This document shows, in pieces, positions 3,571 through 64,000 of a stretch of 64,000 nt of DNA. Made by a program: the position numbers and the translations under genes. Under the pieces are notes generated by a model that was not told where the DNA came from, made no database searches, and saw only the letters and a list, made by a program, of their open reading frames with translations. The first letter of the stretch is position 1, and each line of letters starts with the position of its first letter. This DNA comes from Monocercomonoides exilis PA203. Lineage: Eukaryota > Protista > Preaxostyla. The stretch lies in assembly GCA_001643675.2 (NCBI GenBank), contig LSRY02000006.1, positions 1,612,001 to 1,676,000 of the forward strand, written 5' to 3'.

Positions 3571-4236
3571 TTGAAAGCTAAAAATAAATTCGTCACAAAC
3601 GCATTGAATCATCAAATAAGCGGGGGGAAAAACAGCAAAACACAAATGAGAAGTGAGCATAACAAAGTCTTGTATTAACATAATTTTTGTCAGAATTCAA
3701 TAACACTCAAAGAACAAGAGAAAGAGAAAGCGTGTACATGTGCGTCGTGTGCGTGGGTGCGTGAGCTTGTGAGAAAATTGAAAAAGAAAACATTTCAATT
3801 TAATAAACAATTTGCTAAAAAAAAAAAAAAGAAAGAAAGAAATAGATGAGAAAAATGAAAAGCATTGCAGGCACTAATAATATTTTCATTTAAGCACTCC
3901 ACTTTCATAATCGTCTTTTCGATAAATAAACTTATTTTTTCATCCATCTTTTTGTGAAACAAATAATAAAACGGTAAAAATGACTTTAGAAATTAAAGAA
4001 CACAAATAACAAAAAAAAAAAACATCACAGTATTTACACCTGCCCAAATAATATCTATCCATATTCAAAGTATATTCTTGGTGTTTTTGATTCGTTTATT
4101 ATAATAATAGTTATTATCCTGAAATTTTGTTTTAAAAAATTGTCTCAAGCAAAATACAGAATTATATCAAACAAATCATATTCATGATCAATTTTTAATT
4201 TTTGAGTGTCTATCCAAATATATACGCAGTCTTAAT

Positions 4237-6144
4237 CGGATATTATCACATCGAGTTTTGCACAACTTTTTGTGACTATATCAGATTGTGATAATATACG
4301 ATGCTGATTCACACAGATAAAAAAATAAAGATAAATCAATTTATTTAGGGTGCATATTTTATCTTGACCTCAAAATTTTATCTCAACCCTGTTTTTTTGA
4401 AACTTATTTTTGCTTTTTTGATTTGTGAAAAGGCTTAAAACACAAACAAAATATATAAACTTTCTGATATTTTTGTTTTTCAGAATTCTGTTAAAAATTT
4501 TTTTGAGATTTTTATGTTCAAAAAAATATTCAAAATTTTTATTATTTTAGGACCCAGATCAAAGACTTGCTGACTTTGAAGCGAATATATCATTCGGAAC
4601 GTTAAAAGATACATAATCATAATTCTACACTCCTATATTATTATTATAACTTATTTTTAACTTTTTCAATATAATTTTTGACCTTTTTTTCTCATTTCAC
4701 TGTTTTTACTTAAAACACGATTTTTTATATAAACAAGTATTTGTGTCAAATTTTATTAAAATGAAAAAATTATATAAAGTCTTTTTTATCGTTTCTTTGT
4801 TTTAAGCATTGAAATGAAAAGGAACTTTTCAAGAATTTTAACTGAAAAGCAAGTATATATGATTTTTTAAAGTTTCAAATTACCAAACACTCACAAATAA
4901 ATTATCGTTTTAACATACAAGAATCGTTTTATTTTAATAATGTTTATTTGTCATTTCAATAAATTTTAAAACAAATGGATGCATGTCTCTGAAATCGTGT
5001 TTTTTGAAAAAATGTGTGAAATGAGAAAAAGTGTAAAAAAAACATGTTGAGAAAGTTTTGAACAAGTTTAGCTTATAAAAAAGAAACAATGTATTATGAT
5101 ATGAAAGCTGAAAACTTCTTGTAAAAAATATTCGCTGAAATAGCAGCAAGTCAATGATCAAAACATAAAATTATTATTATCCTCGATCTTTTTGTGAAAC
5201 ATGAAATATTGAAAAAAAAAATACAGAATAAGGAAAATAAAACATTTCAAACATTTCTGGTTATTTTTTATTTATCGCAGTCTTGTGTAAAGCCAAAATC
5301 ATGGCAAAAAAGAAAAAGGTCTAGATAAAGAAAAAAGGTCAAGATAAAATTATAACCCTATTAATTTTGGGTCAATTTTTCCATTTTTTATAATTCTACA
5401 CAACCACACATTTTTCTATTGAAAAAATAATTTATATCATAAATGGACTTAACATGTGTTACTTTGTGACTATTGACAGATAAAATTGGTTTCATGACGG
5501 ACCGAGTAAAAATGTTCACGTCAGAACCTCAATTATTAGAACAAATATTTTTATATGTAAATATTGTTAAATATTTATTCAAATAAGCGAAGTATGAAAA
5601 TGCATTTCTCAATTAAGGATATTGACAAAAAATCATATTTGAAATGAATTGATCATCGGACCGTCAGTGAAGTCAGTGACTGTTAATGGAGTCAGTATTC
5701 TTCAAGGAAATCGTTTTTAAATAATTTATGAAACAAAGAAAAGTTCGAAGAATAAAATAAATTGAATGTATTAATATAATTTGATATATATTACGAAAAT
5801 TCCAAAAATCAGAGAAAATAATATTTTTTTCAAATATAAATGCTGACATGGATTTTTAATTACTGACGGACGCGGCAAAAATTTTTATATCTGTAACACA
5901 TGTTTAAAATGGACATTATAATGACTAATTCAAACATATTTCTGAAAAATCAAAAAATCGAAATTTATGATCAAAAAATCGATTTTTCAATGAAAAATGA
6001 ACTCATAATAAAACAAAAGTTATTATATATATTCAGCCTTGTGATTTTATGCGATGAAAAATGAACGAAAAAAAGGAAAAAATATCGGTGCATCGAAAAT
6101 GTGATTATTAACGATGTTGATTATATTCGACGTGATAATATCCG
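4237..6144. repeat. Nested inverted-repeat block A[B..B'][C..C']A'
   Basis: A 4237-4254 (cggatattatcacatcga) vs A' 6127-6144, 17/18 match. B 4356-4370 vs B' 5336-5350, exact 15 bp with weaker flanking similarity. C 5451-5462 vs C' 5893-5904, exact 12 bp. Confidence 0.55.
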
Positions 6145-6460
6145 GTTTAGGCAGTATATATTTCTTTGAGTTATAAGGTTAAATTTTCGCTGTTATTTTT
6201 GTGTAGTCATTATCCACAGTTTCGATAATTCGTATATTCCCGATTTTCCGCTTCACATGGTGCAAAATATTACGCTTCAGGCATTTTCATAGAAAATTAT
6301 TATCAGAGAATGAACTTATTGTGATCAAAATATTCAACTAAAATGTGTTATTTCTTTGAAAAAAAAATATGAGGTCAGAAAGCATGAAGTAATTTTGTTT
6401 ACGATATTTGTTTTCGGATAAGGAAATTCTCTTAATTATGATTTATGAGAAAGTTGAAAA

Positions 6461-6708
6461 ATATGTCAAAATTTTTTTGAAAAGTTCCTTTTGTCTAATT
6501 TTCTAATAAAATAAAAATTTCATTTTTCAATCAAATTTCTGTTCCCACTCACCAAATTTTGCTGTCATGAAAACACAATCTTGACGATGTTATAATTTTA
6601 TTTAAAGTGAAGTTTCGTAAGTGTGAACAGAAATTTGATCGAAATATGAAGATTTTATTTTATTCGAAAATTAAACAAAAGGAACTTTTCAAAAAATTTT
6701 TGACATAT
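6461..6708. mobile_element. MITE/foldback-like element with ~89-bp imperfect terminal inverted repeats
   Basis: Arm 6461-6549 is the near reverse complement of arm 6620-6708 (shared gaacagaaatttgat ... caaaaggaacttttcaaaaaa ... tgacatat), with a ~70-bp spacer and no ORF. Confidence 0.7.
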
Positions 6709-6847
6709 AATGAGTGAATCAAAAATTTAATGTGAGTTATGAAAGCTTGAAAGTCTGTATTTTTCCCCATTTAATGAAACTACAATATTTCGTTTGAATT
6801 GTTCATTTTAAAAGGAAGTTCGTTCTTTTATTAAAGTCTCATCACTT

Positions 6848-7949
6848 GAACAAATACAGATATCGCATAAAATACCGGACAAGATCCTTATCTCAATAAC
6901 CGCAAGAAGAAAAATTCTGATAATTTTCCTCAAAATATATCTCATCAATACAAACTCGCGTGACATAAAAGACTTTCATGACTTCCTCGTTTATGTTCAG
7001 AATATTTTTTTTTAAATTTGGAAAAATAGGATTTTTAGTTTCTCCGAAGTTTTAAAAATACTTTATTCTATATTTCTGTGACCTGACAAATTGCTTGAAG
7101 CCTCGTCTGTCAAAAAAAAAAAAAAAAATATTTTTTTTCAAAATTAATATAAAATAAACTATTGCTAAAACTTCTCAAGACTTTTCAAAGCAAATTGGAA
7201 AAGATTTGTTGATAGAATCTGTAATATCTTGTAGTTTTTTCTCTTTTGTCAGTGACCGTCAGTGACTGTCAATGACAAATTGTGACAAAAATATTCCTCA
7301 ACTGACATTTCGTGTCAAATAAAATAAATATTTGGAACCTGATCATTTCATTTTTATTATAATTTTTTCAAAATAATAAGAATTATTTCATGAAGATTTT
7401 CAAATTAATTATTATAGTAATTAAGAATCATGAAATCATTATAAATAACCCTTTTTGACAAGTCATAAATATCTTGTCAGTCATTTTGTCATTTTTTCAA
7501 TTTTCTCTTGTCATGTCACAGATGTATACTTTATCCTAATCGCAAAAGAAGTTATTTTGAAAGTTTTGTATATCAAAATGAGTTTGGTTTAATGAGATAT
7601 ATTTTGAGGAAAATTAACAAAATTATTCCTCTTGCAGTTATTGTGAAATCTATATGGGTGATTATTTTTGAAATCATATTATTTCAGACAAAATTTTTGG
7701 TTCTGAAAATAATCTTGAATATTATCAGATGAACATTGAAAAGTGAAAAGGCTTTTTGAATTCATTTTAGTCGTTGATTCCGAAAGACCATTTGTATTTA
7801 AAAACAATTATCATGCTTTTTCACTTTTGAACAAATATTTTTTCTTATAAAACTAACAATTAATGAAAACCAACACCCCGAAAAAAGTTATGATTTCAAA
7901 AATAATCACCCATATTGTCCTGTATTTTATGCGATATCTGTGTTTGTTC
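6848..7949. mobile_element. Nested MITE-like elements E[F..F']E'
   Basis: E 6848-6882 vs E' 7915-7949, 33/35 inverted identity. Inside it, F 7652-7678 vs F' 7889-7915 is a perfect 27-bp inverted repeat (atatgggtgattatttttgaaatcata). Confidence 0.65.
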
Positions 7950-8544
7950 TCAGTCATAAAATTCGATAAGAACAAAAATACATTTTTGACTGTGTTATCT
8001 TTTCTATTCAAATGAAAGACATTGAGTTGGAACAGTGATTAGATAAAAAACATATGATTTTTTTTAACCAAAAACATCACGAGAGAAACTTTTTTTTTTA
8101 TAAAACTATTTGATTAAAGGTTGTTTTGGACTTTCAACAAACATTCACATTGATAAATTTCGAAACAATGAAAAGACTATCTCTTCCATTAAATAATGAT
8201 GTTTAAAAACTTTTTGTGCATTTTGTTTCTATGTAACTTTATTGCTTTTTAAAATTTTTTTGAATAAGAAAAAAATTGTTGAAATGAAATTATGTTATTG
8301 TTATTAAACAAAAATTCAGGCAAAATCCAATTATAACATCTGCCTTTAAAAATTTACTTTCTTTAATTAAGAAAAAGAGTACAAAGATTTGTAAATAAGT
8401 TGAAAAATAAACATGAAAAAAAGGATCCAATTAGAAAATTCTATCCAAAGACTGATTAAGTGCACCTAGAATTGAAAATATGTAAAACTGAAATCAAAAA
8501 AGAACATCTCGATTAGAAAAAGTTTCATTTTTTTTTTTTTTTTG

Positions 8545-11500
8545 CTAATGATCTTTCAGCCGACCCGAATCTTCCACTCTTTGCCTGATTAATTCTATTA
8601 GTTTCTTATCTCTAAGCAATGTCTCAATGTTGCAGAGGATGCGATATTTCCAATAATGCTTTCTATTTGAAGGCTGATTGATCCACTCCTCCCATGGATT
8701 ACTATGAAACAGTACGCCCTTGCGCTTCTCGCCTCCAATTGCAACAATATCTTGAAATGGAAAAATAGCAAGCATTGCGGGGGAATAGAAATGCATATCA
8801 AGGAGCCTTAAATGCTGTGAAGTTGGAAGATACCGAGGGACTCCTGTTGGGTATGTATAAGGAGGAGATATTGACAAAGGTTCTTCCAATGCGTCTTCAT
8901 TTTCGCTTTCACCATTAGAATATTCTTCTAAAAATTCGTTGTTTTTAAAATAATCATGCTTTTTTATTGATTGTGATTCACTCCTTTTAAATTCATTCGC
9001 ATATGAAGAATTGAGAAAGGTCGATTCATCAATAAAAGAATTGCCTAAAAGTCTGTACCAAACATCAGTTACAATGGACATTCCCGCTTTTCCTTCAGGG
9101 CTGCTGATATATTCCTTGAAGCGTTGTTCTCGTTCGTAATTTCGCTTTGATTTTCTTTTTTCTAGTTCGCTTTTTACTGATGATAATTGCATAGAAGATA
9201 AAACGGATGATTGAGAAATAGATACAGATTCATCACAACTTTTTGCATTTTCAGCCAAAATTGCACCCTTTTCTTTTTCACTATTCTTTTCGTCTTTTTC
9301 TTCGAAAACTCCATGTCTTTTCAAACTTTTCTTTTTTCCCCTGTATTTATTTGAATCATCTAGATCGCAAAGTTCCCACCAGGCACGAAGGGGAGGCATG
9401 TCGTGTGTTGATGTTGTTGCAACAACGCGCTCAGAATAGTCACTTGGATGCATGCAATGCCCTTCAATCCCATCAATTACTGATCCAGGCGCAAGGATCC
9501 CTTCACTTCTTCTTTTTTCTCTCTGTTTTTCTTCCACATCAAATGATGGCATGCGCTGCACTCGCAACCCTAAAATGTTGAATTCGTTCATAACATGAGG
9601 TACACAATGCGCAACATGCCCCAAATCCTCTCCACACATTAACATTCTCGATGATTGCTTTAACCACGAAAGTTTCCGATGACCAGATGAGCGAAATTCT
9701 TCTTCGTGCCATCGGTAAAAATAATCATCACAAAATGACAACAGTTTCTCCTTGCAATTCGCATCCAGCCGCTGATAAGATAAAGATGAGCCTATGTTGA
9801 AACGTGGCACATAATAATCATTCCCATACTTGTATAAGCATACTGAATTTTTGAGTGCCCAAAACTTCTTCATGTGCTGGTCAAATTCTCTCACTCTTTC
9901 GGCAGGCGTATCATCATTTATGCCCCACTTTGAAGCTTCGTGTGCTTCAATGGCGGCTTCTGTTTCAAACTCAGCTTTGAAAACGAAATCTCCTTCTTCA
10001 ATAGTCGGATTACCTTGCTTTAAATACTCTTCAATTACTTCTGCTGAAGTCATCTCAATTGGATCTTCAACAATTTCTTCTTCTTCATCTTCTTCCTTGG
10101 CATCATTTCTGTCTGTGATTGGTAAAGTTTGTGTAACAGAAGGAATTGTCGAATAAGAAAATGTACATTCATTTTCAGATGCGTGCGACCCGAGACATCT
10201 TCCTTTAGCCTTTTCTGCTTCAGCTCGCTTTCTCTTTTCACTCTTCTCAATTCCAAACAGGCTCTCTACAAACTGTCTGGTGATATAAGGTTTTGTAAGC
10301 TTATCGTTGTCATCCGAAACTCCTTTGAATGCTAGTCCTGTTTTATAGACCATGGAGCCAGGAACAAATCGTGCATGAAGCCCTGAACGGCATTGAAGAG
10401 GAATCTCCCAAATACGGAAAAAGCCCAAAATGTGATCGATTCGATAAGAATGGAAAAATCTGCTCATAACCTTCAGCCGATTAGCCCACCACACAAAATT
10501 GTCTTCCATTATGTTATCCCAGTTGTATGTTGGGAAATTCCAATTTTGACCTGAAACAGCGAATGCATCTGGGGGAGCACCAGCTTGTGTGTTGAGACGA
10601 AAATATCGCCTGAAGTACCACGTATCAGCAGAATGAGCATCCACTCCAATAGGCACGTCTCCTTTGAGGAACACACGAAGCTCAGCGCACTTTGCGCTGG
10701 CCTCTCTGAGCTGTTTGTCCAAAATGTACTGCACCCACATGTAAAACCGAACCAAAGGCCATGCTGGATCTTCGTTGGACACAACCTTTTCAACAACAGA
10801 TTGAACCATCTGCTCAATTTCTTTCTCTCTTTCTCTGATTGCTGCTGGAGTTTCAAGTGAAGCCGTAGATGAAGAGAGTGCGCTGTCTTCATTTTTCAAG
10901 GTATCACTTTTCTCTCCCTTCAAACTGTATGGCCACAAATGCCAATTGGTTGTGTGTTGTATTTCACTTATAGCTTTGAAAGCAGCATACGAAGGAAGCC
11001 AATACTCACTCTCCTTTACAAACTGTTCAAATTCTTCATTTCCATCGACTAGCCCTTTAGCTAAGTGATACTCGTATATTTCATGAAGCCATTTTAACTT
11101 TATCTTCAATGTTTCTTCATAGTCCATAAACTTTTTGTTTAAGTGTTTTCTTTTTGTTTCAATCTCCTCAAGTACAGATGCAGGTAAAGGATCAATAGAA
11201 TCAATATTCACATAGATTGGATGAAGCGCAAAAGATGACACCGAAGAATATGGATAAGAATCCACCCATTTTGTCTCGTGCACCATCGTGTCTGTCACCG
11301 GAAGCAACTGAATACAGCGCAATCCACACATCGAGCACCATTTAGCAAACAGAGGAATATCACAAAATTCGCCACAGCCAACAGATCTCTTTGATCGCAG
11401 AGAAAAAACAGGAATCACCACCCCAGCAGCTCTGAAATGCGGTTGAGATGGATATGTAAAGGTTCCGCATTCAATAAATAAAAATTGTGCCTTAATTTTT

Positions 11501-12577
11501 GTTTTATCCATTGGAAAAGAATTTGATGAAGAAGCAGAAGATTGAGACGACGATGCAAATGATGAATTTTGATTTTCTGGTCTTAAATCATCGTCACAAA
11601 CTTGCTGAAACAAATCATCATCTTCGTCATAAATTTCTGGTGTAGCCTTTTCTTTTACAAAATTAGTCTTTAGAAGGCCCATTTTTATTGCTTCGGTTAA
11701 TTTGATTGGAGCCAAAGCTCCGGTCCATAATTGCGCTTGACTATTTTCATCAATGCATACAATACTTGGAGCTTCAACATGCTTAACTTCTTGTTCTGTT
11801 GTGTCGCAATCACGGCCTTCGTCGTGAGTCAATACAAATTTAAAATGCAATGGAAACTCATCCTCACCAAAATTGCGCATGCACTGAAAGAGCGGAAACT
11901 CCTTATCGTGAAGTCCTTGAGCCGAGTGACAAGACCAGAAAAAGTTTTTCCTTGTTCCTCCAATCAAACGAACAGTTTCTTTTGGCGAAATAAGAGGAAC
12001 TGGAACTTCAAAAATAACAGAGTTTTGACCAACAGGTGGATTATCTAAATGTGGAAGCGATGTCGGATGCTCCCGTCGTAAGCAGACATCATGAAGAGCA
12101 GTTGTCGATGAAACGTCTTCAAAGAAATTTGGAGCCAAATGCCAAACATCTCTAACTTCCACAAGTTCTTCAAGCAAGAAATGCAACAAAACAAAGAAAA
12201 TAGATCATTTGTAAATAAGAGATTATTAATAATATGATTTCTTTTCAAACCTCCTTCAGGAATAAAAAAACAACGTATTCGGTTCACTCCATTTTCCCAT
12301 TCAATTTGTCCATCTCTTTCAACAAAATACTTTATATGCAAATAAATATATATAAACAGTACATTTAAACAAAAATATAGCAATTTTATACCTTATATTC
12401 AAACTTTACACCAGCATCGACAAGAACAAATGCTGACCATATCTCTCCATTGCAAACGCAATGCACAGCAAAGTTAGGTTTCCATTTCCCGAGAGACGTA
12501 TTGGAACCACTTATGCATATATTTTCTCCCCATTTAGTTCGATATTTCACCGAAAAAAGAACAACAATTTTTCCCAT
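8545..12577 (-). CDS. DPE2: 4-alpha-glucanotransferase, DPE2-type (N-terminal CBM20 + GH77); exons 12577-12392, 12329-12251, 12167-8545
   Basis: The spliced N-terminus gives a CBM20 (TKWGENICISGS..LGKW..FEYK|YFV..WENGVNR..VRDVW). GH77 motifs: GVVIPVFSLRS, IQLLPVTDT, SYPYS, GDVPIGV, GAPPDAF..GQNWNFPTYNW, YRIDHILGFFRIWEIP, GEDLG, LRVQRMP, TSTHD, INQP..HYWKYR. The catalytic D/E/D residues are intact. Confidence 0.93.
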
Positions 12578-12732
12578 TAAAAAGGGATAAATACAAATGG
12601 TTAAGATCAGTTTGAAAGTCAGATTATTTCTGTGGATTTTCTTTTTTCATTTAAAAAACTTACTTCTTCATGTAAAATATTTTATTTAATTTCGTGGGTA
12701 TCATTTATAATTGTGGAATGATTTCTTGTGAC

Positions 12733-12833
12733 GAGCAATGATGTAGTGTATTTTTCGTGAAATTCTTGACTCTTTTGGAAATTGTTTCTTTTATGAGTCG
12801 GATTAGTGATTTACACACTTGATCGCTGAGCTC
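12733..12833 (+). ncRNA. Candidate box C/D snoRNA/scaRNA, predicted 2'-O-methylation guide for U2 snRNA
   Basis: Terminal stem GAGC (12733-36)/GCTC (12830-33); box C ATGATGT at 12738-44 and box D CTGA at 12826-29 in kink-turn register; internal GACTC/GAGTC stem. Guide ACACTTGATC (12815-24) is the exact complement of conserved U2 GAUCAAGUGU. Confidence 0.7.
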
Positions 12834-13178
12834 AAACACAATTTTAATCATTCAAATATTCGAACCATTTTGAACTTCGGCAATAGAATATGATATCAAA
12901 GTTTTCTGTGTGACAAAGAACAAAACGAATCTTCCAAATTTTTAAATGGAGATATTAATGTACAATGTTATTTTAAATTTCGTTGATTTTTTTTCCTAAA
13001 GTTATTTTTAAAACATAAATCAATTCACACAACATTTTTCTCTGTATTTTAAACAAATGAACGCAACGCATTCATTACGAAAATTATTTAAACAATTTGC
13101 TTGATGCATATATCAAATTATTTAAATAGGTTAATAAAACAAAATTGCCATTTCGGAAATGGGCATTCATTGATCAAA

Positions 13179-15402
13179 ATGATAAAAAATGTTATTATTG
13201 TCGTTTATTTATTCACATTTTTTATTGATATAAGTATTTGCAATGAAACACCTCAACAATATCACTTTACTGTGTTCCACACAAACGATGGTTTGCTGGA
13301 AAGATCTTTTTTAGAAAATATTTGAATATCTTTAATTTGACTCACTATTACAGTGCATGGCTGGGCTAACGGTAAACCCCATGAAAAGTATTTTGATGGA
13401 TCTTTGGCGGATTACGAAAATTTGATTTGGCATTCAAAAAACAAAGCAAATTCTACTCATATTGTTCTTTCATTCGATTCTGGAGATTGGACAGTTGTTT
13501 GTTTTCCAATCATAAAATTTATGTATTGTCACGTTATATATATTTCTATTTGGCGATTAAACTAGGGAACAGGATTGTCTGACGGAACGCCTATTCCTGG
13601 CTCTTTTATGTTTGAACTTGCTTTCAACATGTCACTTGATGCTTGGTCAATGGGAACTCATGAATTTTACAGCGAAAATACCGTACGCTTTATAAATCAA
13701 AATGTTACAAAATTGCTTGGAGAAAGGTTGAGTTATTTGTTTATGAAGAATGAGTGATAATCATTTTAATAAAAATTTAAATAGGTATCTTGCTGGAAAC
13801 ACAAAAATGAAAAATACATCTGCACCGATTGCAAATACTCACATCATAAAAGATTTTCCAGGATTTGGCAAAGTTGCTATTTTTTCTTTTATGTATACGT
13901 GGAAGCCTCCAACTGATGTTGCATTTATTACTGATATGAAAATTGCTTTAACAGAGAGTCATTATGTGGATACCATACAAAATAAAGAAGTGAAATTTGC
14001 AATTGTTTTAGCGCATCTGGATCCAGGTTTTGAAGAAGCAACACAAATAATTGACGATATTCACTCAAAAAGACCAGATGTTCCTGTGCTTTATCTTGGG
14101 GCAAACACCCATTTCGAAAACGTGACGCATAAAGGAAATGGGAAGCAGCTTCGAATACAAAGTGGAGGATTTTTTTACCAAATTGGTAAGATTGACTTTG
14201 ATCTGATTCCTTCAAAAGATGCTGATGAAGCTCAGTTTTCAATAGCAAATGAAAAAGTTGTATTTATTCCAACAAATGTGGCTGAAATGAAAAAAGCAGC
14301 AGGATTTGCTGAGCATTCCAATTCGTCCCCTCAATCATCTCAAAAAGAAGGACTGGCAGCTTATTCGGAAGATGAATGGGAAACAGAAAATGGAAAGAAG
14401 ATGAGAGAAGCAACAAGAGCGCAGGTTTCGCAGCTTGGATTAGATGATGTCATGGGCTGTTCTCCACAGACATACTACAAATTCCAGAATGCAAGTTTAA
14501 ACGAGTCACTGTACAATTTGCTGTTGAACACGGTGTATCCAAGCATAAACCCATATCCGAGGAGCCTTGACAAAAAGGAGGATCGGATGACTTATGAACA
14601 GTGGCTGGAGTGGAATCGGACAAACGGAGAAACTTCACCCGCCGAACAAGCTCCAAAGTGCACGATTACTGTTTATGCGTCAAACTATGCAACACAGCGG
14701 ACTTCAATGTTTGAAGGAAGTGTTTCTATGGATGATGTTATCTCTATCGATCCATTCAATTATAAGCTGTGTTCGTTCAGAGATCTCAAACACTCCCATC
14801 TGCAGATGATGTTCAACTCAGATATTGAGTCTGCAAATAGTGCAGAGTGCGAAGAGGAAGATATTCTGTGCCAAAACAATTCACCTCACAAGCATTCTTT
14901 CTCTTCATCTGGCATTACTCGCTCTCCTTCTGATTCACATCATTCATCTGGGCTGTTTCAGCAATTTAGACATTCAAATGACATTCTGCCATTTGTCGAC
15001 CGAATGAACTATTCAAGATTCATTCATACGGATGTCTGCGAATACGACATCATATCTTCCACATACGACTGCAAGAGGATGCAAGATATTCTAAATAAAA
15101 TTCTTCCATCACAATATTTCTATTTGACCCATCCAAGTCAAAAAAGAACAAGAGAAGTGTGGTTAGAATACATGAGGTCTTATATGCAATGCCCACTCAC
15201 TCGAAAGGGCGATCATAAGCGCGCTGCTGGATATATCGGATCCGGAATCGCTTTATTGATATTAGTGTTTTTATATTTTGCAAGTCTTTGGATATATTTA
15301 GAATTAAAAAGATATCACAGAAAAATAGCATATCACAGATTGAAAAACAAAGAAGGATCGATGATGACTGAAATTCGAAAGAATTCAATAAAATTATCTT
15401 GA
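13179..15402 (+). CDS. 5'-nucleotidase-like calcineurin-type metallophosphoesterase with signal peptide and C-terminal TM anchor; exons about 13179-13290, 13354-13496, 13566-13726, 13785-15402
   Basis: Spliced motifs FHTND|VHGW, DSGDWTV|GTGLSD, MGTHEFY, GER|YLAGN, LAHLD, LGANTH, IQSGGF and DPF match the fungal YHR202W-like nucleotidase pattern. Hydrophobic N-terminus; TM helix IGSGIALLILVFLYFASLWIYL. Confidence 0.8.
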
Positions 15403-15764: not shown

Positions 15765-18700
15765 ATGTCAAGTTTTCCATGTTCTGGAGACTCTTCACCA
15801 AGATCATTTGAAATTACAAAACAGAAAAATGAACAGCTAGAAAAAGAAAACAAAATGCTGAAACTTTCTGTTCAGGAACAAAAACAGCAAATTGAGCGTC
15901 TGACAAGCCGAATTCATGAACTTGAATCGAAAGTTTCATTTCTCCACGAAGATTATCTTGTATGACTTATATTTTTGTTGTCCTTTGCAATTAATGTCAT
16001 TCCCTTTTAATAGATGAAAATACAAACGCTTAGAGACAAAACAGATCATTCAAAGGATATTTTTTCAAATAATAATTCAACATCCACAAACTTGCCATCC
16101 TTTGCTGTACAGCGTGGATTATTTGGATATTCAGACAGCATGCATTCTCGTCGCATGTCATTTGATGCTCGTGCGTCTCATGATATGTTTGTTCCATCGA
16201 CTTTGTCTGCACTGCCTTCTCCCGCAGCTGAAGAAGAATCGTCAATAATTCAACAGAAAGAAGCCACGCGTCTTGAATTGGTGGGAACAGTCGAGCCTAC
16301 AACGTCTACAGTTGATGGTTACGTGAAAAAACGCAATTTTGATTCCGAAAGGGCATGCGTTTTAGGTGTTTGTGTGATGGACAAAAAAGCCACTTCAAAG
16401 CCAATGCACGAAATACTGAAGCGAATACAAGAGCATGGAGACATAAAAATTGTCCACTTTGGGGAGCAAGTTATCAAAGAGCGTCCAGTGACAGAGTGGC
16501 CGCATTGCGACATCTTGCTATCATTCTTTTCTGGTGGGTTTCCAATTGAAAAAGCAATTGAATATGTGAAATTACGTAATCCGTTCCAAATAAACGATTT
16601 ATGCGGCCAGCTGGATCTCTTCTCAAGAGATAAGATTTATGAGCGTCTAACACAGCATAACATTCCAGTCCCTTCGTATGCTGTGATTTATCGGGATGAG
16701 TTTGGTAATCCGAATCCTTTATGCAATGTGGAAGAACACACAAACTACATTCTCATCGGAACCAAAAGAATCACCAAGCCATTTGTTGAGAAGCCGCTCG
16801 ATGCAGAAGACCACGATGTGTGGCTGTACTACCATTCTGATCAGGGCGGTGGAGCGCGAAGAATGTTCCGAAAGAAAGACAACAAGTCGAGTGAGTTTGA
16901 TCCGTCAATCACGCACATCCGCACTGATCGCTCGTATTTGTATGAGGAGTTCATCCCGGCGGATGGGTCGATGGACGTGAAGGTGTATGCTGTTCTGCCA
17001 GACTACGTGCACTGCGAGCTGCGGAAGTCGCCTACAGTCGATGGGATTGTGGAGCGCGATGCAAACAAGAAGGAGATACGCCGAGTGACACAGGCAACAG
17101 AAGCAGAAAGGCACTACGCGCAGATTATCGGGAAGGTCTTCAACCAGCGTGTGTGCGGGTTCGACATGCTGAGGAAGACGCGGAATGGGAAGACTCAGAC
17201 GTACGTGTGCGATGTGAATGGCTGGTCGTTTGTGAAAGGCGACCCGAACTATTACGAAGGCGTGTCTCGTATCCTGCGCAATCTGATGCTGCAGGCAAAA
17301 GCAAGGTTGAAGCAGCCAAAGCCGTTGCTTCACCCAGCAATTAGCGAGAACGACCGGAAAAGCGCGACTCTTAAACGTGTTTCTGCATACTTCAAAAGCG
17401 GAGAAAATGAGCCAAAGCAAAAAGTGAAAGTGCTCATCAGCTCTGAGAACTTTCCTCGATTAGTTGAGTTTTTTTCCACTTTAGCTTATCTTGTTTCTTT
17501 TGCTTCCAATGAATACATTTTCGGTGGAACATGTCCGTCGCTCCGAGGTGTTGTTGGGGCGTGCACCAGCTTTGAGGGATGGCAAGACGATGACGACGTT
17601 GCAGATTCTTTTGAGATTCTTGAGCATCGTCGGTCACACATTCATTTTGCTTCTATAATACAGGAGCTTCGTGCTGGAGAGAAGACAGTTGCCGACGCTT
17701 CTCAGTGCAACTCCCAAGCATCTTTGTTGTCAACATCCGTTGAAGCTCAACCGATGCTGCCGAATGCATCTGTACAGCCTTCTTCGTCATCTACAGCAGA
17801 AGAAGACGCACAGTGCCAATCTGATGAGTTGCACACAGATCGAAGTATTTCTCCGTATATTTTCGGAGGACAGCACATTTCACAGCCGATTCCAACCCTG
17901 GCGCCACTTTCTGAAGGCGCATCTGATGACAGCAACGCCCAGCGCCCTTCTTCCACTTCTCCTTCTGTTACTGCATCACAAACTGCAGCAGATGAACCGA
18001 AATCATTGCCTTCTGTACAGCTTCCTGAACAGATGTCATCTCCTATGACCAATATGGCATTAGCATTAGATGCTTCTATTTCTTCTCTTTCAACAGAAAA
18101 TGGTCGGACAGCATCGTCTTCACCACATGCTTGGACGCTGCCAGTATCGCCAAGAAAAATGGAGGCGACCACTTCAAACTTTGCTGCACCTGATCCTTTG
18201 ATTCAAGAAGATGAGTTATTTGTTGCAGAAAATGACATATCAGATGCAAGTGTGTGTTCTGACCAGGCCTCGCTGATTGCCGTGTATTCGCCTCCGTTCT
18301 CTGCCCATCGACATCGCTCTTCCTTTTCGAGCACTTCGAGTGTATCGTCAGCTGAATTTGCACCGCCTTCAGCTGTTCCCATTCAAAAGCCTGCGTCAGG
18401 TGCGCTGTTGCCACCCACCACTTTCCGCTTTTTGCCGTCTTGCGTGCATGCCAATCTCCCGTTCCCTGCCCACGAGACTTCCTTCTCACCACCAGAACCG
18501 ATACCGTTTGCCGGCAATGAGTCTGCTCCTCTCAGATCTGCCTCTGCAATCAGCATGAACAGCAGCTTGTATCGCTCAACGGCTGGCAGCCCTTCCCAGC
18601 TCTTTTCAAATTATTTCCAGTCAGATACGCAATTGAAGGCCAAACTGCGGAGTGACAAGAAGCGGAAGAAAAGAGACCGCAACAATGGATTTTCCATCTC

Positions 18701-21700
18701 AATCAAAAGCAACCCTGAGATTTTCAGAAAATTCTATACTATTTTGAAGGAGGAGCTGGAGAAAGCGTTTCTTCTTGCTGCGCAGACAGGATCAGTTGGA
18801 GAATCAAAAGAACAAGCAAATTCGTATTCTCCGTCTCAGAGTTATGTAATGCCATCTCCGCTGATCACAGCCCCAACCTCTGTTTCTTTGGCAACGCCAT
18901 CAACCGTAATTTCTTCTGCATCATCTTCTTCTGCTGCTACTACTACTTCTACTTCTTCTTCAATCTCTGCAAATCCTTCTTCGACTTCATCTTCTGCTTT
19001 GCCATATCCAACAAACAATGCTTCATCAGCACAGCCGACTTTCATCCACCCAATAGCTTCGTCTCCTGTGCTGTCGCATCCGCCATTGGTTTCCTTTGAG
19101 CCTCAAAGCAAACAATTGCTAGCACTTCGCAGACAGCAGCAGCAAACAAGCCCAATGCCCTCTCATCCGTGCGACCGCCAATCGAAAAAGAGTACAGCTG
19201 CAACTTCTCAAGCGAACGGTGTGTCTTCCCCAGCACCTTCGTCCCCATCTTCCCATCCAACAGCGTTTGTCAGGCCCCAATCAGCTGGGCAGTCATCTCG
19301 CAACTCAGTTGCCTCTGATCGGATGTCTGTTGTGCACTCCGTCGACGAGGAAGGCGACGAGCGCAACGAAAACAACTACAACTTCCGCTTCCGCCTGCGT
19401 GTGATGGATGTGGCGACGGGGAGCGAGGATGTTCTGGAAGCATTGCAGGACATACTGGCTGTGATGGAAATGGGGAGAAGAGGGCTGAAGATAGAGGCAC
19501 GGACTGCGAGGCTGACGCCAAGTGGAGATCTGTGCGGATTGTATAAAGAGCCAACGTCTAAGAAAAAGAGCAAGACGAAGAAGATGCAGCAGCCAAAGAA
19601 GAAGGGTGTTGAGAAGAAAGGCGAAGATGAAGAGAAGACGGATAGCTACACGCATTTGACTGATATGGACGAGGAAGGAGAAACAGACCAGCTGGAAAGC
19701 GACATTGGCAGCGATGTCGACGTTTCAGACACTGCCTCTTTCTTGTCTTCTGCCTCGTCTGCAATCAATGCCCCTGACAATCTGTTTCCAAACGAGCCAG
19801 AAGAAGTCACATACATCGTGCTCACCTGTCGCTGGGGTGGTACTCTGAGCCATTCTGGCTGGCGCGCATCGCAAATGCTGGGGCAGATGTTCCGCTCGAT
19901 CTTCTTGCCGTCGTCGCAGCTGTCTCCGGTGCCTTCGCCTGAAGCAGTGGCCGAGTGCGATGCGAAAGACGGTACCGAGTTCGTCCGCTCTGCCACCTTC
20001 CACACGACCATCCAGCGACGCTCGCAGGCATCGGCAGTCGGCTTTGCGGATGCGTTCTACAGTGGAACCATGAACAAAGACGCAGACCCGAGCGATTTGG
20101 CTGACCCGGCGCAGCTCATCACGCAGCTACCGTGTGTTTCTGAGCTGCAGAAGAAAGATCACATTCTTGTCATCGACTCTCCGCTGCTCCGTGGTGACCA
20201 GCACGAAAACGCGAGGATCCGGCTGTGGGACATGAAGAGCAAGCTGAAGAATGTGCTGATTGTGAACAGGGAATACGGCTACGAGCCAGAAGACTACGAC
20301 AACCCGATCATCGCAGCGCTGCTGTCGTGCGGGCTGAAGAAGCTGGGCAATCCTCACGCGCGTCTGGTGGCTATTCATTCTTCGATGCACTCGTTTATCC
20401 GCCGCCTGGAGAGCATTGAGAAGGGCAACAAAGGAAAGTCCTGTTTGGACTTGACAGCAGAACTGGAAAAGGAAAGAGCCAAAACGAAAGAGAAAAGAGA
20501 GAATTCTGTTCCGAGTCAGCTGTCTTTGTTCCAACAGACAACAAGCTCCACCGCAAATGCTTCGACAAATACAAACACGGATTCTGTTTCAGATGAGTTC
20601 GGAAAGATGACTATTATTTCTGCTTCGTCTGCTGCTTCAGCAGCATCGCCTTTTTCGAGTGAAGCATCTCCAGCCACATTTTTTTCTCTGATTGGTCCAT
20701 CATCCACAACAACAACTACTACTACTACTTCTTCTCCTTCTCCTTCTTCTTCTCCTTCATCATCGTCTTCTTCTTCTTCAACAACTACCAACATTATTAC
20801 ATCCTCTTCTGCTTCCACTTCTGCTGTTGTTAATGCTCCCTTCTCTGTGTTGGTGCCAACAGATCCATCATATCATCAAGATACTTCTCTGTCATCCTCA
20901 TCTTCCTTCTCTTTCTTGCCTCCGATTGCTTCATCTACTTCATCATCATCTCTATCATCAACTACTCCTGAGCCTCCTTCATCTGCATTCCTCCCTCTTC
21001 ACCACACCCGCTCTGCCCCAACATCTCCTGAGGTTCGGTCGATGGGAGACCCAAATTCACCTCCACATGCAGACACTTCGCTTATCCTCAGCACAAAAGT
21101 GCATTCGCACCAGCAAGACACTTCGGCTGATTCCGCTTTTGCACAAACAGACAATTCAAACGCTTATCCGTTTGCTCCTTCGTCTGAACTGAATGTTTCT
21201 GTGCCGCCAAATAAAAACGCACCCACTCTTGAATTCCTATCGCCTATCACTTCTTTGTCCAATTATCCTGCTTTGTCTACTTCATCTGTTCAAATGCTTC
21301 CAACATTTTCAAATTTATCAAGTTCAACTTCGTCATCATCCTCCTCCTCCTCCTCCTCATCATCATCATCATCATCAACTCCAGTTTCTTCCTTATCAAC
21401 TGCACCAATTATACGCACGCTAACTACAAAGAACTCATCTCCTTCCAATTCTCAGACGACTTCCTCGCTTTACAAGCAGTCTTCAACAGATGTTCTGGAT
21501 GGCTCATTTGTCGGATGCGGAGGAGAATCGCTCTCGTTAATCAAGCAGCGGTGGAAGAAGTTGTATCACTCGCTGCGGCACGAGAATGGCGAGTGGAACA
21601 CGTCAATCATCATCAACATCTATCAGAACTTGAAGTGGGACATCACCCATAATGCTCCCCTGGCTGAGCTTCTGAGCCCGCTGTATCAGACAATCGCTCC

Positions 21701-24620
21701 GCTGGCTTTCTTTATCCAGCCGTTGGAGTATGGAATCCTGCTGCGACATCGCATTCAGATATCAAGCGACTTTGCTGGGGAACTGATGAAGCGCGAGATG
21801 AAAGAGCTTGTTGGAACCGACCAGTCATCTGCACCAAAAGCAGAGTTCTTCTTCACTGACGATGCAACCATCAACTCGCTTGTGGATCAGATCATCCTGT
21901 CGGGGCTGCCTGGATTCCATCTCGAGTCTGCCAGCACACTGGGCGAAATGAACTACTCTTCCTTTGTGCTCTTCAAGACATACGCATCTGCCACAGGCAA
22001 AGTGTGGACGGATGTTGAGGTGTCTGCAGGAATCAGCGAAAATCCGTTCCAGATGGTCGGTCCAGCACACACACTGCCTCTGAGCCAGCCAGTTGCATTG
22101 CGCGAGGCTATCTGCAAGGAGGATGCAAAGGAGTGCTTCTTCGGAAGCAGCATTCCGATGGCAATTGTTCCGCGACACGAGACACTCAAAGGAATTGTTG
22201 CTGTGTTCCGCCACGGTGATCGAAAGCCCAAGCAGAAAATGAAGCTGAATGTAACGAACACGAAAGTTTTGGACTTGTTTTTCCCGCTGGAGGAGATTAA
22301 CCTTATCATAAATGCACAATCTCTTCCAGATTCTCTGAAGAAGTGCGTGATAACTGCTTCTCGTTCCTTTGATAAAAAAACATGGGCACAAACATTTGGC
22401 AATCCTGAGGACGCGATGTCTTCAACAGCCTCTGTTGGAGCTGCCGGCAAAGAAGCTGCGCCTCGCTGGCCTGACTCCATCCTTCTGAAACAGGAATACT
22501 CAAACGAGCAGTTTGAGTCGCTGATTAGTCTGCTTGTTGAAGTCATTCACGACAGCAGCAGGAAGCAAGAGGACGAAAAGCACAAGCCAGTTCTGTCGAT
22601 GCGGCAGAGGCAGAACGATGAGTATGAAGGATACATCAACCTGCACGCTGTCCTCTCAAAAAGCTATGTCGGCATGAAGATCCAAGTGAAGCCCACGAAA
22701 GTTCAGCTGCGAACTGTTCGGATTCCGCAGCCCACTCAGAAAGCAAACACTTCCTCTTTCAAGCCAATCGCAGACACGTCGCGAAGGCAGCGCTCCACTT
22801 TCCCCAGGCTCAAAGCAAAAGTGGACGAATTCCTTCGCTTCCTGCGGACGGCTGCGGCTTCTCCTCCAACTGCCTCTGGCATCGGTGACAGTAGCAATGC
22901 AAATCTCTCTGCTTCTCAATCATCCCTCTCTTCAGCATACCCCCACTCATCGTCTGCCCCTGCTCCGATTGTTCCTGAATATCGAGAAAAGCAGATCGTT
23001 GTTGTAACTGAAGCATTGCTTATTGTGAAATGGGGTGGCAGCCTGACACATGCAGGATATCATCAATCGAAGCAACTGGGAAGCCTGTTTCGTGAAACGG
23101 TGCTTCCGCTGGACAGGGGAGAGTGCAGAACATTCCTGGACAATGTGCATGTGTTCACGAATGGCGAGAGAAGAGTGGAGAGAACAGCAAGAGCATTCAC
23201 CGAAGCGCTGTTTGGTTTGGATGATCATGAGCTGGTGCAAATAACTCTTGCCTCTCAACTGCTCGATACGGTGCCAGACGAAGCAAGAGACTTTCTTGTT
23301 CAAACCAAAAAGAGGATGCAAAAGATTATGCTTATGAACTATGATTTTTCTATCTCGGGGCAGCCTTTGATAACTCCGGAATCGGAAAAGAATGTATATC
23401 TCAATTCTTCGTCTTCCTCAGCATCTTCTTCTTCTTCCACAAACTCTTCTGCAAATTCAAATTCCACAACTAATCTATCTTCAGCAGTTAATGACACATT
23501 TTCTGCTCTTCAGCCTTCGCATTCAGATTCGCTTTCGTCTCTCACACAATCGCGGGCAGCATCGTCTCCTATATCCACATCTCCGTCTGCTTCATCTCCG
23601 ACTTCTTCGTTCACATTTCGATCAACACTTTCTAATTCTTCTTTGAACATGTCTTCATCTCCATCATATGTGCCACATCGCTTCCACGCAAACATCGAGA
23701 AAATCAAAAATTCACTGCGTGTTTCGGAAGAAGAGCGCAACGACTTCAAAGGAACAACAAACGAGGCTGAGTTTGGGAAGCTTGCGAAAGAGTTTGTGGA
23801 TGACATCATGCGGTGCAAGCCATGGGGCCTGGCGCAGATTGGAAACCCGCTTGCGCGTCTGGTGCGTCTTGACAGAGGGATACAGTCGTTGAGGGATGAT
23901 CTGGCACAGAAAGTGGATCAGCTTGATCCCACACAGTATTATGCCCCAATGTGCGAGCATGAGTCATTTCGCACCATGCAGCATCGATGGGAGAAGGCTA
24001 CTGTTGATCTCCATGACCCAACGACCAACATATGGGATGTGACTAAGATTGGAGATATTTACGATTCGATCCGGTTTGATGTGATTCACATGAAGGACAT
24101 CTTGTCGCGCCTTTCTGTTCCAATGAACGACCTGCTTTCGAATGCAAAGGCATTGGCAGACTTCTGGGTGACACAAGAATTTGGCATTTCACATCAAGAT
24201 AAATTCAAAATAGGAAAGCTCATTGCTGGCCCACTGATGAGCCATATTGTGTCGAATATTGAAAATGCAGCGTTTAATTCCGCGCCATCAGTTGATCTGT
24301 ACTTCACCTCTGAATCTCATCTTCATGGGCTTTTGAACTTGATCATGCTTTCTGGGATTGACGGACTGATGTTGGATCGGGAAAGCATAATGGGGTTGGA
24401 CTATCTGACACACATTATTTTCAAAGTGTATGAAGCTGAACAGTCAAAAACATTTAGAGTCGAATTGTACATCTCAAGTGGAGCAATTCCATGCAATCCA
24501 AAAATGGATCTTGGTCAGACTCATGCTCTCCCTATTGAATCTCCATTCCTTGTTCACGAAGGCTTAACTCTTGTTCAGCTCAGACAAATTTTAGAATCAT
24601 TTGGTCCTGTTAGTAAATGA
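15765..24620 (+). CDS. VIP1: Inositol hexakisphosphate/diphosphoinositol-pentakisphosphate kinase (PPIP5K/Vip1) with tandem histidine-phosphatase domains; exons 15765-15959, 16014-24620
   Basis: Phase-0 intron 15960-16013 (GT..AG). ATP-grasp kinase motifs: LGVCVMDKKATSKPM, WPHCDILLSFFSGGFP, KPFVEKP..EDH, GGGAR.MFRK, YLYEEF, DVKVY, RKSPTVDG, VCGFDMLR, VCDVNGWSFVK. Phosphatase motifs: RHGDRKPKQKMK, LLIVKWGGSLT, LYFTSESH, LDYLTHIIF. Confidence 0.95.
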
Positions 24621-63471: not shown

Positions 63472-63619
63472 TTCTTTGTTTTGCTCAATGGGTAAGATCA
63501 TTAGTTGATGAATTTTTCTGTATATCACTGGAATCAATAAGAGAGTAATATCATCAGAGACAATTGTTTTCACAAAAAAACTCTATCAAAAATCGTTTAT
63601 GGTGGTTAATTAGATCAAA

Positions 63620-64000
63620 ATGGAAGATAATAAAGATAAAATTGAAACACCTGAAAATTCGAGTAACTTAACGACTGATACTGATAATGATAAACAATTA
63701 TTAGATTCAAATCAAAGTTTGCTCTGATTTTATTTAATTTACTTTTTAATGAAAATGTTTAATTCAAAAAAAGCTGTGGTTCAGACTGAAGTCGTTGAGG
63801 GTGAAAAGAAATCAGATGAAATAGCAGCAAATGAAAGTGATGAAGAGTTATTTGAAGATGACAATGAACCGAAAAAGCAATTAAAAGACCCGCAATCAAG
63901 TGAAAATAAAGAAATTGAGAACCTCGAAGAAATTGAAGAAGAATCTGAAGATGAGGAAGATGACGATGAAGAAGATGAAGACGATGATGCTTATAAGCCA
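63620..64000 (+). CDS. Hypothetical protein with acidic N-terminus, 3'-partial; exons 63620-63716, 63774->64000
   Basis: ATG exon, phase-1 GT-AG intron, then an open D/E-rich frame running off the window end. Confidence 0.6.

What the first reader, a model, noticed from the sequence alone, without database searches (positions are those of the whole stretch)
12733..12833. Free-standing box C/D RNA whose guide targets U2 snRNA next to the branch-site pairing region
Seen: GAGC-AAT-GATG ... CTGA-GCTC gives an exact kink-turn register, and the 10 nt just before box D (ACACTTGATC, one spacer base) are complementary to GAUCAAGUGU. Established: that is conserved U2 sequence (human nt 25-34), and the D+5 rule puts the methyl group on C28. 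From memory this position is methylated in Drosophila and plant U2, which needs verifying. A hairpin (GACTC..GAGTC) lies between putative D' (GTGA, 12757-60) and C' (GTGATTT, 12806-12) boxes, as in scaRNA-type guides. Inference: snRNA-modifying guides exist in this divergent lineage and U2-C28 methylation may be ancient. The ORF track cannot show this gene.
Basis: partly seen in the sequence, partly recalled or inferred. Interest (0 to 1): 0.75.

Follow-up and report, generated by a model that had tools for sequence, protein, structure and literature searches.

The report
Oxymonad guide RNA for U2 methylation
Between two protein genes of the mitochondrion-less protist Monocercomonoides exilis lies a transcribed 101-base sequence with the full layout of a box C/D guide RNA, predicted to methylate the splicing RNA U2 at C28 as known guides do in fruit fly and Arabidopsis, which would extend this modification to a third major branch of eukaryotes.

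Summary
The window is Monocercomonoides exilis. The 10-nt D guide complements the Rfam U2 consensus at 25-34, and D+5 falls on C28. The terminal kink-turn alone is commonplace (2 in the window, 1.43 expected); none of 61 look-alikes from metagenomes and prokaryote genomes has both kink-turns. RNA contigs cover it in 4 of 4 runs of one study, and DNA depth is single-copy. Cm28 is mapped in Drosophila (MeU2-C28) and, as Cm29, in Arabidopsis (SnoR101); vertebrates lack it. The best Rfam hit is the U2-A30 guide snoU2-30, below threshold and offset by 2 nt. Not shown: the organism's own U2, the mature RNA and its strand, a promoter of its own, the methylation, Cajal-body signals, or a homolog. Whether the site is ancient or arose by repeated guide sliding is open. 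Verdict: new member of a known kind; interest 0.4.

The parts
12733..12833 (+). Predicted mature box C/D guide RNA, 101 nt
   Evidence: Sequence; Rfam snoU2-30 full-model match, 24.2 bits, below the gathering score of 60
12733..12744 (+). 5' strand of terminal stem (GAGC), 3-nt bulge and box C (ATGATGT, 12738-44)
   Evidence: the non-consensus last base U can wobble-pair with spacer G12825 (read from the sequence)
12745..12756 (+). D' antisense region (12 nt); no established target; partly complementary to the RNA's own D guide
   Evidence: only a weak fit to the fungal 5.8S site printed in the PMC2780460 supplement
12757..12765 (+). Box D' (GTGA) and 5' strand of the internal kink-turn stem (AATTC)
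12768..12799 (+). Apical hairpin (GACTC/GAGTC) with a U-rich top; no known Cajal-body signal
12800..12812 (+). 3' strand of the internal stem (GGATT), bulge AGT and box C' (GTGATTT, 12806-12)
   Evidence: 94 of 20,000 shuffles give such a register with a stem of 5 bp or more
12812..12824 (+). D antisense element: 10 perfect pairs (12815-24) to U2 consensus 25-34, plus 3 pairs (12812-14) to 36-38 with A35 bulged; G12821 lies opposite C28
   Evidence: Rfam U2 consensus; duplex -16.6 kcal/mol
12825..12833 (+). Spacer G, box D (CTGA, 12826-29) and 3' strand of terminal stem (GCTC)
12695..13069 (.). Stretch covered by RNA-run contigs that include the element (12695-13069, 12696-12952, 12739-12941, 12705-12951); likely the precursor
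   Evidence: 4 of 4 RNA runs, one study; contigs give neither strand nor ends

Best explanation
This is a single-copy, transcribed, intergenic sequence of Monocercomonoides exilis with the complete two-kink-turn layout of a box C/D guide RNA, and it likely directs 2'-O-methylation of U2 snRNA at the position equivalent to human C28. Shown: the boxes, both kink-turn registers, complementarity to the U2 family consensus, RNA cover and single-copy DNA depth. Inferred from established C/D snoRNP biology: a longer precursor (about 12695 to 12950) is trimmed to the 101-nt core that the terminal kink-turn protects; Snu13/15.5K, Nop56, Nop58 and fibrillarin assemble on it; the D guide pairs with U2 25-34 (possibly also 36-38 around a bulged A35); fibrillarin methylates the base opposite the fifth nucleotide before box D, C28, five bases upstream of the branch-pairing GUAGUA. 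The D' region most likely guides nothing and instead pairs with the D guide when no substrate is bound.
For: Anatomy verified. Internal kink-turn in 94 of 20,000 shuffles. Of 40 metagenome and 21 prokaryote-genome look-alikes that share box C, guide and box D, 2 and 0 have the terminal stem, 1 and 0 the internal one, and none has both. The guide complements upper-case positions of the Rfam U2 consensus. The top Rfam hit among 4227 families is a U2 guide for the same segment (snoU2-30, E 0.02 on 391 bases). The predicted base is a mapped methylation site elsewhere: Drosophila Cm28 by scaRNA:MeU2-C28 (PMC6770171; 100% by Nm-VAQ, PMC13228274) and Arabidopsis U2 C29 by SnoR101 (PMC8053127 Table 3; the +1 offset to human numbering is my inference from five shared sites). 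RNA contigs cover the element in 4 of 4 runs while the same runs skip five neighbouring introns. DNA depth at the element is 124 against 121 and 129 in the adjacent bins. [quoted passage not shown]
Against: The M. exilis U2 sequence was not seen, and the segment is not invariant (Drosophila U2 has one extra A in it). No Rfam match at gathering score (24.2 against 60 bits). Box C ends in U and C' is degenerate. No homolog was found in any collection, so there is no covariation evidence. A 6-bp terminal stem with this guide arose by chance inside a bacterial ArgR gene (L029). All four RNA runs come from one study and are contigs, which give no strand, ends or mature size. The statistics are post hoc. 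rRNA and other RNAs of the organism could not be screened as alternative targets.
Confidence: 0.78

Rival explanations
1. It is a real box C/D RNA with two jobs, like Neurospora CD29: the D guide acts on U2 and the D' guide would methylate the conserved 5.8S rRNA adenosine (Am42/43; plant A47).
For: CD29 is also 101 nt, with a D guide to the same U2 segment, a long D'-C' hairpin and a D' guide to 5.8S-Am42, both sites mapped (PMC2780460). Aligned at D', our 12-nt region matches CD29's at 6 of 12 positions, and D'+5 falls on the same A (comparison by eye).
Against: Against the fungal 5.8S site printed it gives only 5 contiguous pairs (one wobble), a mismatch, then 3 pairs (two wobble). U-rich guides fit A-rich motifs easily: the complement of its last 10 nt occurs twice more in the window. 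The paper itself says other fungal cognates keep only the U2 guide. M. exilis 5.8S was not available.
Confidence: 0.12
2. It is a real box C/D RNA but its target is not U2-C28: an rRNA or other RNA of the organism carries the complement, or the RNA is an orphan or inactive because M. exilis U2 has diverged or the guide is sequestered by the 5' arm.
For: The organism's U2 and rRNA were not seen. The 5' arm pairs with the guide (-8.3 kcal/mol; predicted in the minimum-energy fold).
Against: Pairing to the U2 motif is about twice as strong (-16.6 kcal/mol). The register hits a base methylated in two other supergroups. The self-pairing that uses box C is incompatible with the kink-turn register.
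Confidence: 0.12
3. It is a chance arrangement, or an imperfect inverted repeat or mobile-element end, inside an untranslated region or promoter transcript between two divergent genes.
For: The terminal kink-turn alone is expected 1.4 times per window. The folding z-score is -0.77. The two ends resemble inverted repeats. L029 shows a chance match with a 6-bp stem.
Against: It needs the guide, both kink-turns, a known target base and an intergenic transcribed location together: about 0.002 expected per 80 Mb (assumed genome size) before counting the internal kink-turn. DNA depth is single-copy, unlike the repeat at 4234-7986. None of 61 look-alikes has both kink-turns.
Confidence: 0.08

Closest known systems
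Drosophila scaRNA:MeU2-C28 (FBgn0065057)
   Same: D-box guide for U2-C28, kink-turns at both C/D and C'/D', AG directly after box C (PMC6770171 text), similar size (about 95 nt by revised coordinates).
   Different: Intron-encoded in Stt3A and carries a CAB box; ours is intergenic and lacks the GUUAnUG motif.
Arabidopsis SnoR101
   Same: Assigned guide for U2 C29, the plant equivalent of C28 (PMC8053127 Table 3; the numbering offset is inferred).
   Different: Sequence not seen (one search found none in the supplement), so only the target is compared.
Vertebrate mgU2-30 / SCARNA9 3' domain (Rfam RF00493 snoU2-30)
   Same: Best Rfam hit; identical first 11 and last 9 nt of the consensus and the same guide core.
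   Different: 24.2 bits against a gathering score of 60. Two extra bases before box D move the target from A30 to C28. 101 against 70 nt. In vertebrates it is half of an intronic tandem RNA with a GU-repeat spacer (PMC4041459).
Neurospora crassa CD29
   Same: 101 nt, D guide to the same U2 segment, long D'-C' hairpin (PMC2780460).
   Different: Targets U2-Am31 (the A30 equivalent), is intronic, has a mapped 5.8S D' guide and a different terminal stem.

Membership tests
Box C/D methylation guide RNAs | Box C (RUGAUGA) and box D (CUGA) near the ends, forming a terminal kink-turn | tested here: met
   4-bp stem, 3-nt bulge, box C 6 of 7, box D exact
Box C/D methylation guide RNAs | Internal C'/D' boxes | tested here: met
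   in kink-turn register with a 5-bp stem; 94 of 20,000 shuffles
Box C/D methylation guide RNAs | Antisense element of 10 nt or more before D or D', complementary to a substrate RNA of the same organism | tested here: inconclusive
   10 perfect pairs (13 with a bulge) to the Rfam U2 consensus; the M. exilis U2 was not available
Box C/D methylation guide RNAs | Accumulates as a discrete small RNA | tested here: inconclusive
   covered by RNA contigs in 4 of 4 runs of one study; contigs show no strand, ends or mature size
Box C/D methylation guide RNAs | Bound by Snu13, Nop56/58 and fibrillarin; directs methylation at D+5 | not testable with these tools
   Needs immunoprecipitation and methylation mapping
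Box C/D scaRNAs | Cajal-body signal: Drosophila cgaGUUAnUg or vertebrate G.U/U.G wobble stem (definitions from PMC4041459) | tested here: not met
   no GUUAnUG and no (UG) or (GU) repeat of three or more; the two UGAG matches lie in a stem arm and over box D, not in a terminal loop
Box C/D scaRNAs | Localises to Cajal bodies, binds WDR79 | not testable with these tools
   No genome held; one search listed no paper on oxymonads among its 15 rows
Rfam RF00493 snoU2-30 | Score at or above the gathering threshold (60 bits) | tested here: not met
   24.2 bits
Rfam RF00493 snoU2-30 | D+5 on U2-A30 | tested here: not met
   A 2-nt insertion before box D gives C28 (alignment)
MeU2-C28 / SnoR101 (U2-C28 guides) | D+5 on U2-C28 | tested here: met
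   Against the Rfam U2 consensus; predicted only
MeU2-C28 / SnoR101 (U2-C28 guides) | Sequence homology outside the guide | not tested
   Their sequences were not obtained

The most novel reading that the evidence does not exclude
The C28 and A30 guides of U2 descend from one guide RNA of the last eukaryotic common ancestor whose target slides by two bases. The oxymonad copy keeps the ancestral C28 register and the terminal stem still seen in vertebrate mgU2-30, and it is also a dual guide for 5.8S rRNA like Neurospora CD29, working without any known Cajal-body signal.
Probability: 0.15. Interest if true: 0.62.

Novelty: new member of a known kind. Interest (0 to 1): 0.4.

Why it matters
If true, it is an snRNA-modifying guide in a metamonad; none turned up in my searches of the paper library. 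It would put U2-C28 methylation in three supergroups (fly, Arabidopsis, oxymonad). The comparative study of ancient snoRNAs that I checked has no occurrence of 'snRNA' in its main text (PMC3511168), so the age of snRNA methylation guides was not treated there. This locus makes it testable with one primer-extension experiment and a search of three related genomes. It also shows that the oxymonad spliceosome probably keeps RNA-guided fine-tuning, in contrast to the reduced diplomonad spliceosomes. The mechanism itself is textbook.

Tried and rejected
Whole genome: none held, so the organism's U2, 5.8S, U6 and WDR79/coilin could not be searched. Rfam at gathering score: 0 hits in the 64 kb, so no U2 in the window. 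Literature for the M. exilis U2: only 'data not shown'; I listed but did not read that paper's 10 supplements. Homolog scans: viral contigs 0 (single-gap pattern); metagenomes 40; prokaryote genomes 21. Only L025 and L029 had a terminal stem of 4 or more Watson-Crick pairs. L029 lies in a bacterial ArgR gene, so it is chance. L025 is a 59% GC contig with no internal kink-turn, no Rfam snoRNA hit and a weak AAA_25 hit (E 0.014) in the frame that overlaps it; unresolved, probably chance; its record is not held. The pattern required an exact 10-mer, one spacer base and a limited length, so it would miss guides from lineages whose U2 differs, such as Drosophila. A U2 motif scan of viral contigs gave 15 loci, of which 1 (L008) scored as U2; it was used only to print the Rfam consensus. 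Two 5.8S motif scans of viral contigs gave 0. Parts without RNA cover, which prove nothing alone: the depth table shows none for 12592-12682 in any of 4 runs, and no listed contig bridges the element to the DPE2 transcript (ends 12491-12502) or to the downstream gene (from 13203). As a silent-stretch control, the high-copy repeat had no RNA cover in the six bins 5485-7986 in 2 of 2 runs laid, though some in bins 4234-4650 and 5068-5484. This argues against DNA carry-over but does not exclude a long untranslated region. No second C/D pair in the covered stretch downstream (one C-like motif at 12890, no further CTGA). The sigma-70 promoter scan is not meaningful for a eukaryote. U6 and U12 were considered for the D' region from recall only and not tested. 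The identity of the terminal stem with the vertebrate U2-30 consensus was considered as a sign of deep homology, but Neurospora CD29, an A30 guide, lacks it, so coincidence is likely. Earlier-findings look-ups returned nothing.

Full report
Setting. The gene to the left (8545-12204 minus, with further exons to about 12500) is 100% identical to a protein named as a Monocercomonoides exilis glycoside hydrolase 77 (Pfam Glyco_hydro_77), so the window is from this oxymonad. To the right lies an intron-containing gene on the plus strand with RNA contigs from 13203. The element sits between these divergent genes. No genome was held, and Rfam found nothing in the window at gathering score.

Observation. 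The terminal stem GAGC/GCTC, the 3-nt bulge and boxes C and D are in kink-turn register. The Rfam U2 consensus printed carries the complement of the 10-nt guide at positions 25-34 in upper case; positions 22-24 are variable. The fifth base before box D, G12821, lies opposite C28. With A35 bulged the duplex reaches 13 bp, -16.6 kcal/mol.

Chance. The terminal kink-turn alone means little: 2 in the window against 1.43 +/- 1.37 in 100 local Markov simulations. Folding energy is ordinary (z -0.77, 42 of 200 shuffles as good). The internal kink-turn appears in 94, 183 and 435 of 20,000 shuffles for stems of at least 5, 4 and 3 pairs. Guide, box D, box C and a 4-bp stem together are expected 1.6e-6 times per window, or 0.002 per 80 Mb (assumed genome size). 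Allowing for some twenty other snRNA sites a reader might have accepted (my rough figure) leaves this small. As an empirical control, a pattern of box C, TGA, guide and box D gave 40 metagenome and 21 prokaryote-genome loci. Of these, 2 of 40 and 0 of 21 have the terminal stem, 1 of 40 and 0 of 21 the internal one, and none has both. One of the two (L029) is in a bacterial ArgR gene, which shows that a 6-bp stem can arise by chance. These tests use features read from the element and are post hoc.

Expression and copy number. In 4 of 4 RNA runs laid, all from one study, a contig without differences covers the element: 12695-13069, 12696-12952, 12739-12941 (starting 6 bases inside it) and 12705-12951. 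The same runs skip five introns of the neighbouring genes, so they contain spliced RNA. Contigs give no strand, ends or level, so this shows cover, most simply of a precursor of about 250 nt, not a mature 101-nt RNA. What lacks cover is told under Tried and rejected. A DNA contig spans 7889-15900 without differences, and depth at the element (124) equals that of its neighbours (121, 129), whereas 4234-7986 reaches thousands to tens of thousands (run X1 may be the window's source). The element is therefore single-copy and not part of that repeat.

Comparison with known guides. The best Rfam match in the region is RF00493 snoU2-30 over the whole model, 24.2 bits, E 0.15 on 3001 bases and 0.02 on 391 bases, gathering score 60. 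The alignment shows the same guide core with two extra bases before box D, which moves the target from A30 to C28. Drosophila scaRNA:MeU2-C28 guides C28, has kink-turns at both box pairs, is intronic, and C28 is not modified in vertebrates (PMC6770171: parts 1-3 of 4 of the text and the supplement). That supplement also shows that Drosophila lacks Am30 and has an extra A in this segment of U2. Cm28 was measured at 100% in S2 cells (PMC13228274, preprint: passages and supplement rows; one supplement file was unreadable). Arabidopsis U2 carries both C29 (SnoR101) and A31 (SnoR125, SnoR31) (PMC8053127: passages with Table 3; supplement search empty); the +1 offset to human numbering is my inference from five shared sites. 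Neurospora CD29, 101 nt, guides U2-Am31 from D and 5.8S-Am42 from D' (PMC2780460: passages and supplements 1 and 4), and Aspergillus Afu-191 is predicted for U2 Am32 (PMC2377427: passages). Tetrahymena snoRNAs were predicted to guide U2 modifications (PMC3273799: passages), so snRNA guides in protists are not new as such. Cajal-body signals as defined in PMC4041459 (abstract and passages) are absent. Passages of PMC6298559, PMC8522698, PMC6984369, PMC6461891, PMC2875012 and PMC3511168 were read and added no U2-C28 guide in a protist.

The D' region. 12745-56 has no established target. Against the fungal 5.8S site it gives 5 contiguous pairs, a mismatch and 3 more pairs, with D'+5 on the adenosine that CD29 targets. 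This is a lead only, since the complement of its last 10 nt occurs twice more in the window. 12740-49 matches the U2 target at 8 of 10 positions and pairs with the RNA's own guide at -8.3 kcal/mol. The AG after box C echoes the two bases found critical in shortened MeU2-C28. I read the region as a structural partner, not a guide.

Mechanism. Shown: anatomy, complementarity to the family consensus, RNA cover, single copy. Inferred from established box C/D biology: trimming of a precursor to the kink-turn-protected core, assembly with Snu13, Nop56, Nop58 and fibrillarin, pairing with U2 and methylation of C28. From recall, this U2 segment takes part in U2/U6 helix Ia and the branch-point-interacting stem-loop, so the methyl group would tune a region that changes partners during spliceosome activation. 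Candidates for all five snRNAs exist in Monocercomonoides but were not published (PMC6679479: passages), so the pairing in the organism itself is untested.

Novelty. Searches for Monocercomonoides with snoRNA (4 papers, one mention of snoRNA each), with U2 snRNA (3 papers, 2 listed), with spliceosomal snRNAs (3 papers, 2 listed) and two broader searches (25 rows each) showed no description of this RNA; most were seen as listings only. The library lacks most subscription journals, and unread supplements may bear on this. The class and the target site are known, so this is a new member of a known kind in an unsampled lineage. The patchy C28/A30 pattern (fly C28, vertebrates and Neurospora A30, Arabidopsis both) allows either an ancestral pair with losses or repeated 2-nt slides of one guide; one locus cannot decide. 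Interest 0.4.

Noticed in passing
window 4234-7986: High-copy, AT-rich repeat region: summed DNA contig depth of thousands to about 60,000 against about 100 in the genes beside it, with many diverged copies.
   Followed up: no
window 63497-63691 (+): A second terminal kink-turn-like C/D arrangement with a 7-bp stem, 195 nt long; within the number expected by chance, no target sought.
   Followed up: partly
window 13203-15402 (+): Multi-exon gene (introns 13290-13352, 13497-13565, 13725-13782 in RNA contigs); its long last frame has no Pfam hit. The first exons carry motifs recalled as those of 5'-nucleotidase-like phosphoesterases; not tested.
   Followed up: no
window 16014-24620 (+): Open frame of 2868 aa with PPIP5K2_N and histidine-phosphatase domains: a very long PPIP5K/VIP1-like inositol pyrophosphate kinase with serine-rich inserts.
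   Followed up: no
window 8545-12502 (-): DPE2-like 4-alpha-glucanotransferase with two 5' introns; M. exilis has at least two more paralogs and Blattamonas two.
   Followed up: partly
window 13062-13079: A 7-bp hairpin lies at the end of the longest RNA contig over the element (13069); may be coincidence.
   Followed up: no
L008 336-441 (-): A contig of the viral collection carries the first 41 nt of U2 almost intact and then diverges; it looks like a U2 pseudogene fragment in host-derived DNA.
   Followed up: no
L025 110-202 (+): Metagenome contig with the same box C variant, the U2-C28 guide and a 6-bp terminal stem, but no internal kink-turn and a weak AAA_25 hit in the overlapping frame; unresolved.
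   Followed up: partly
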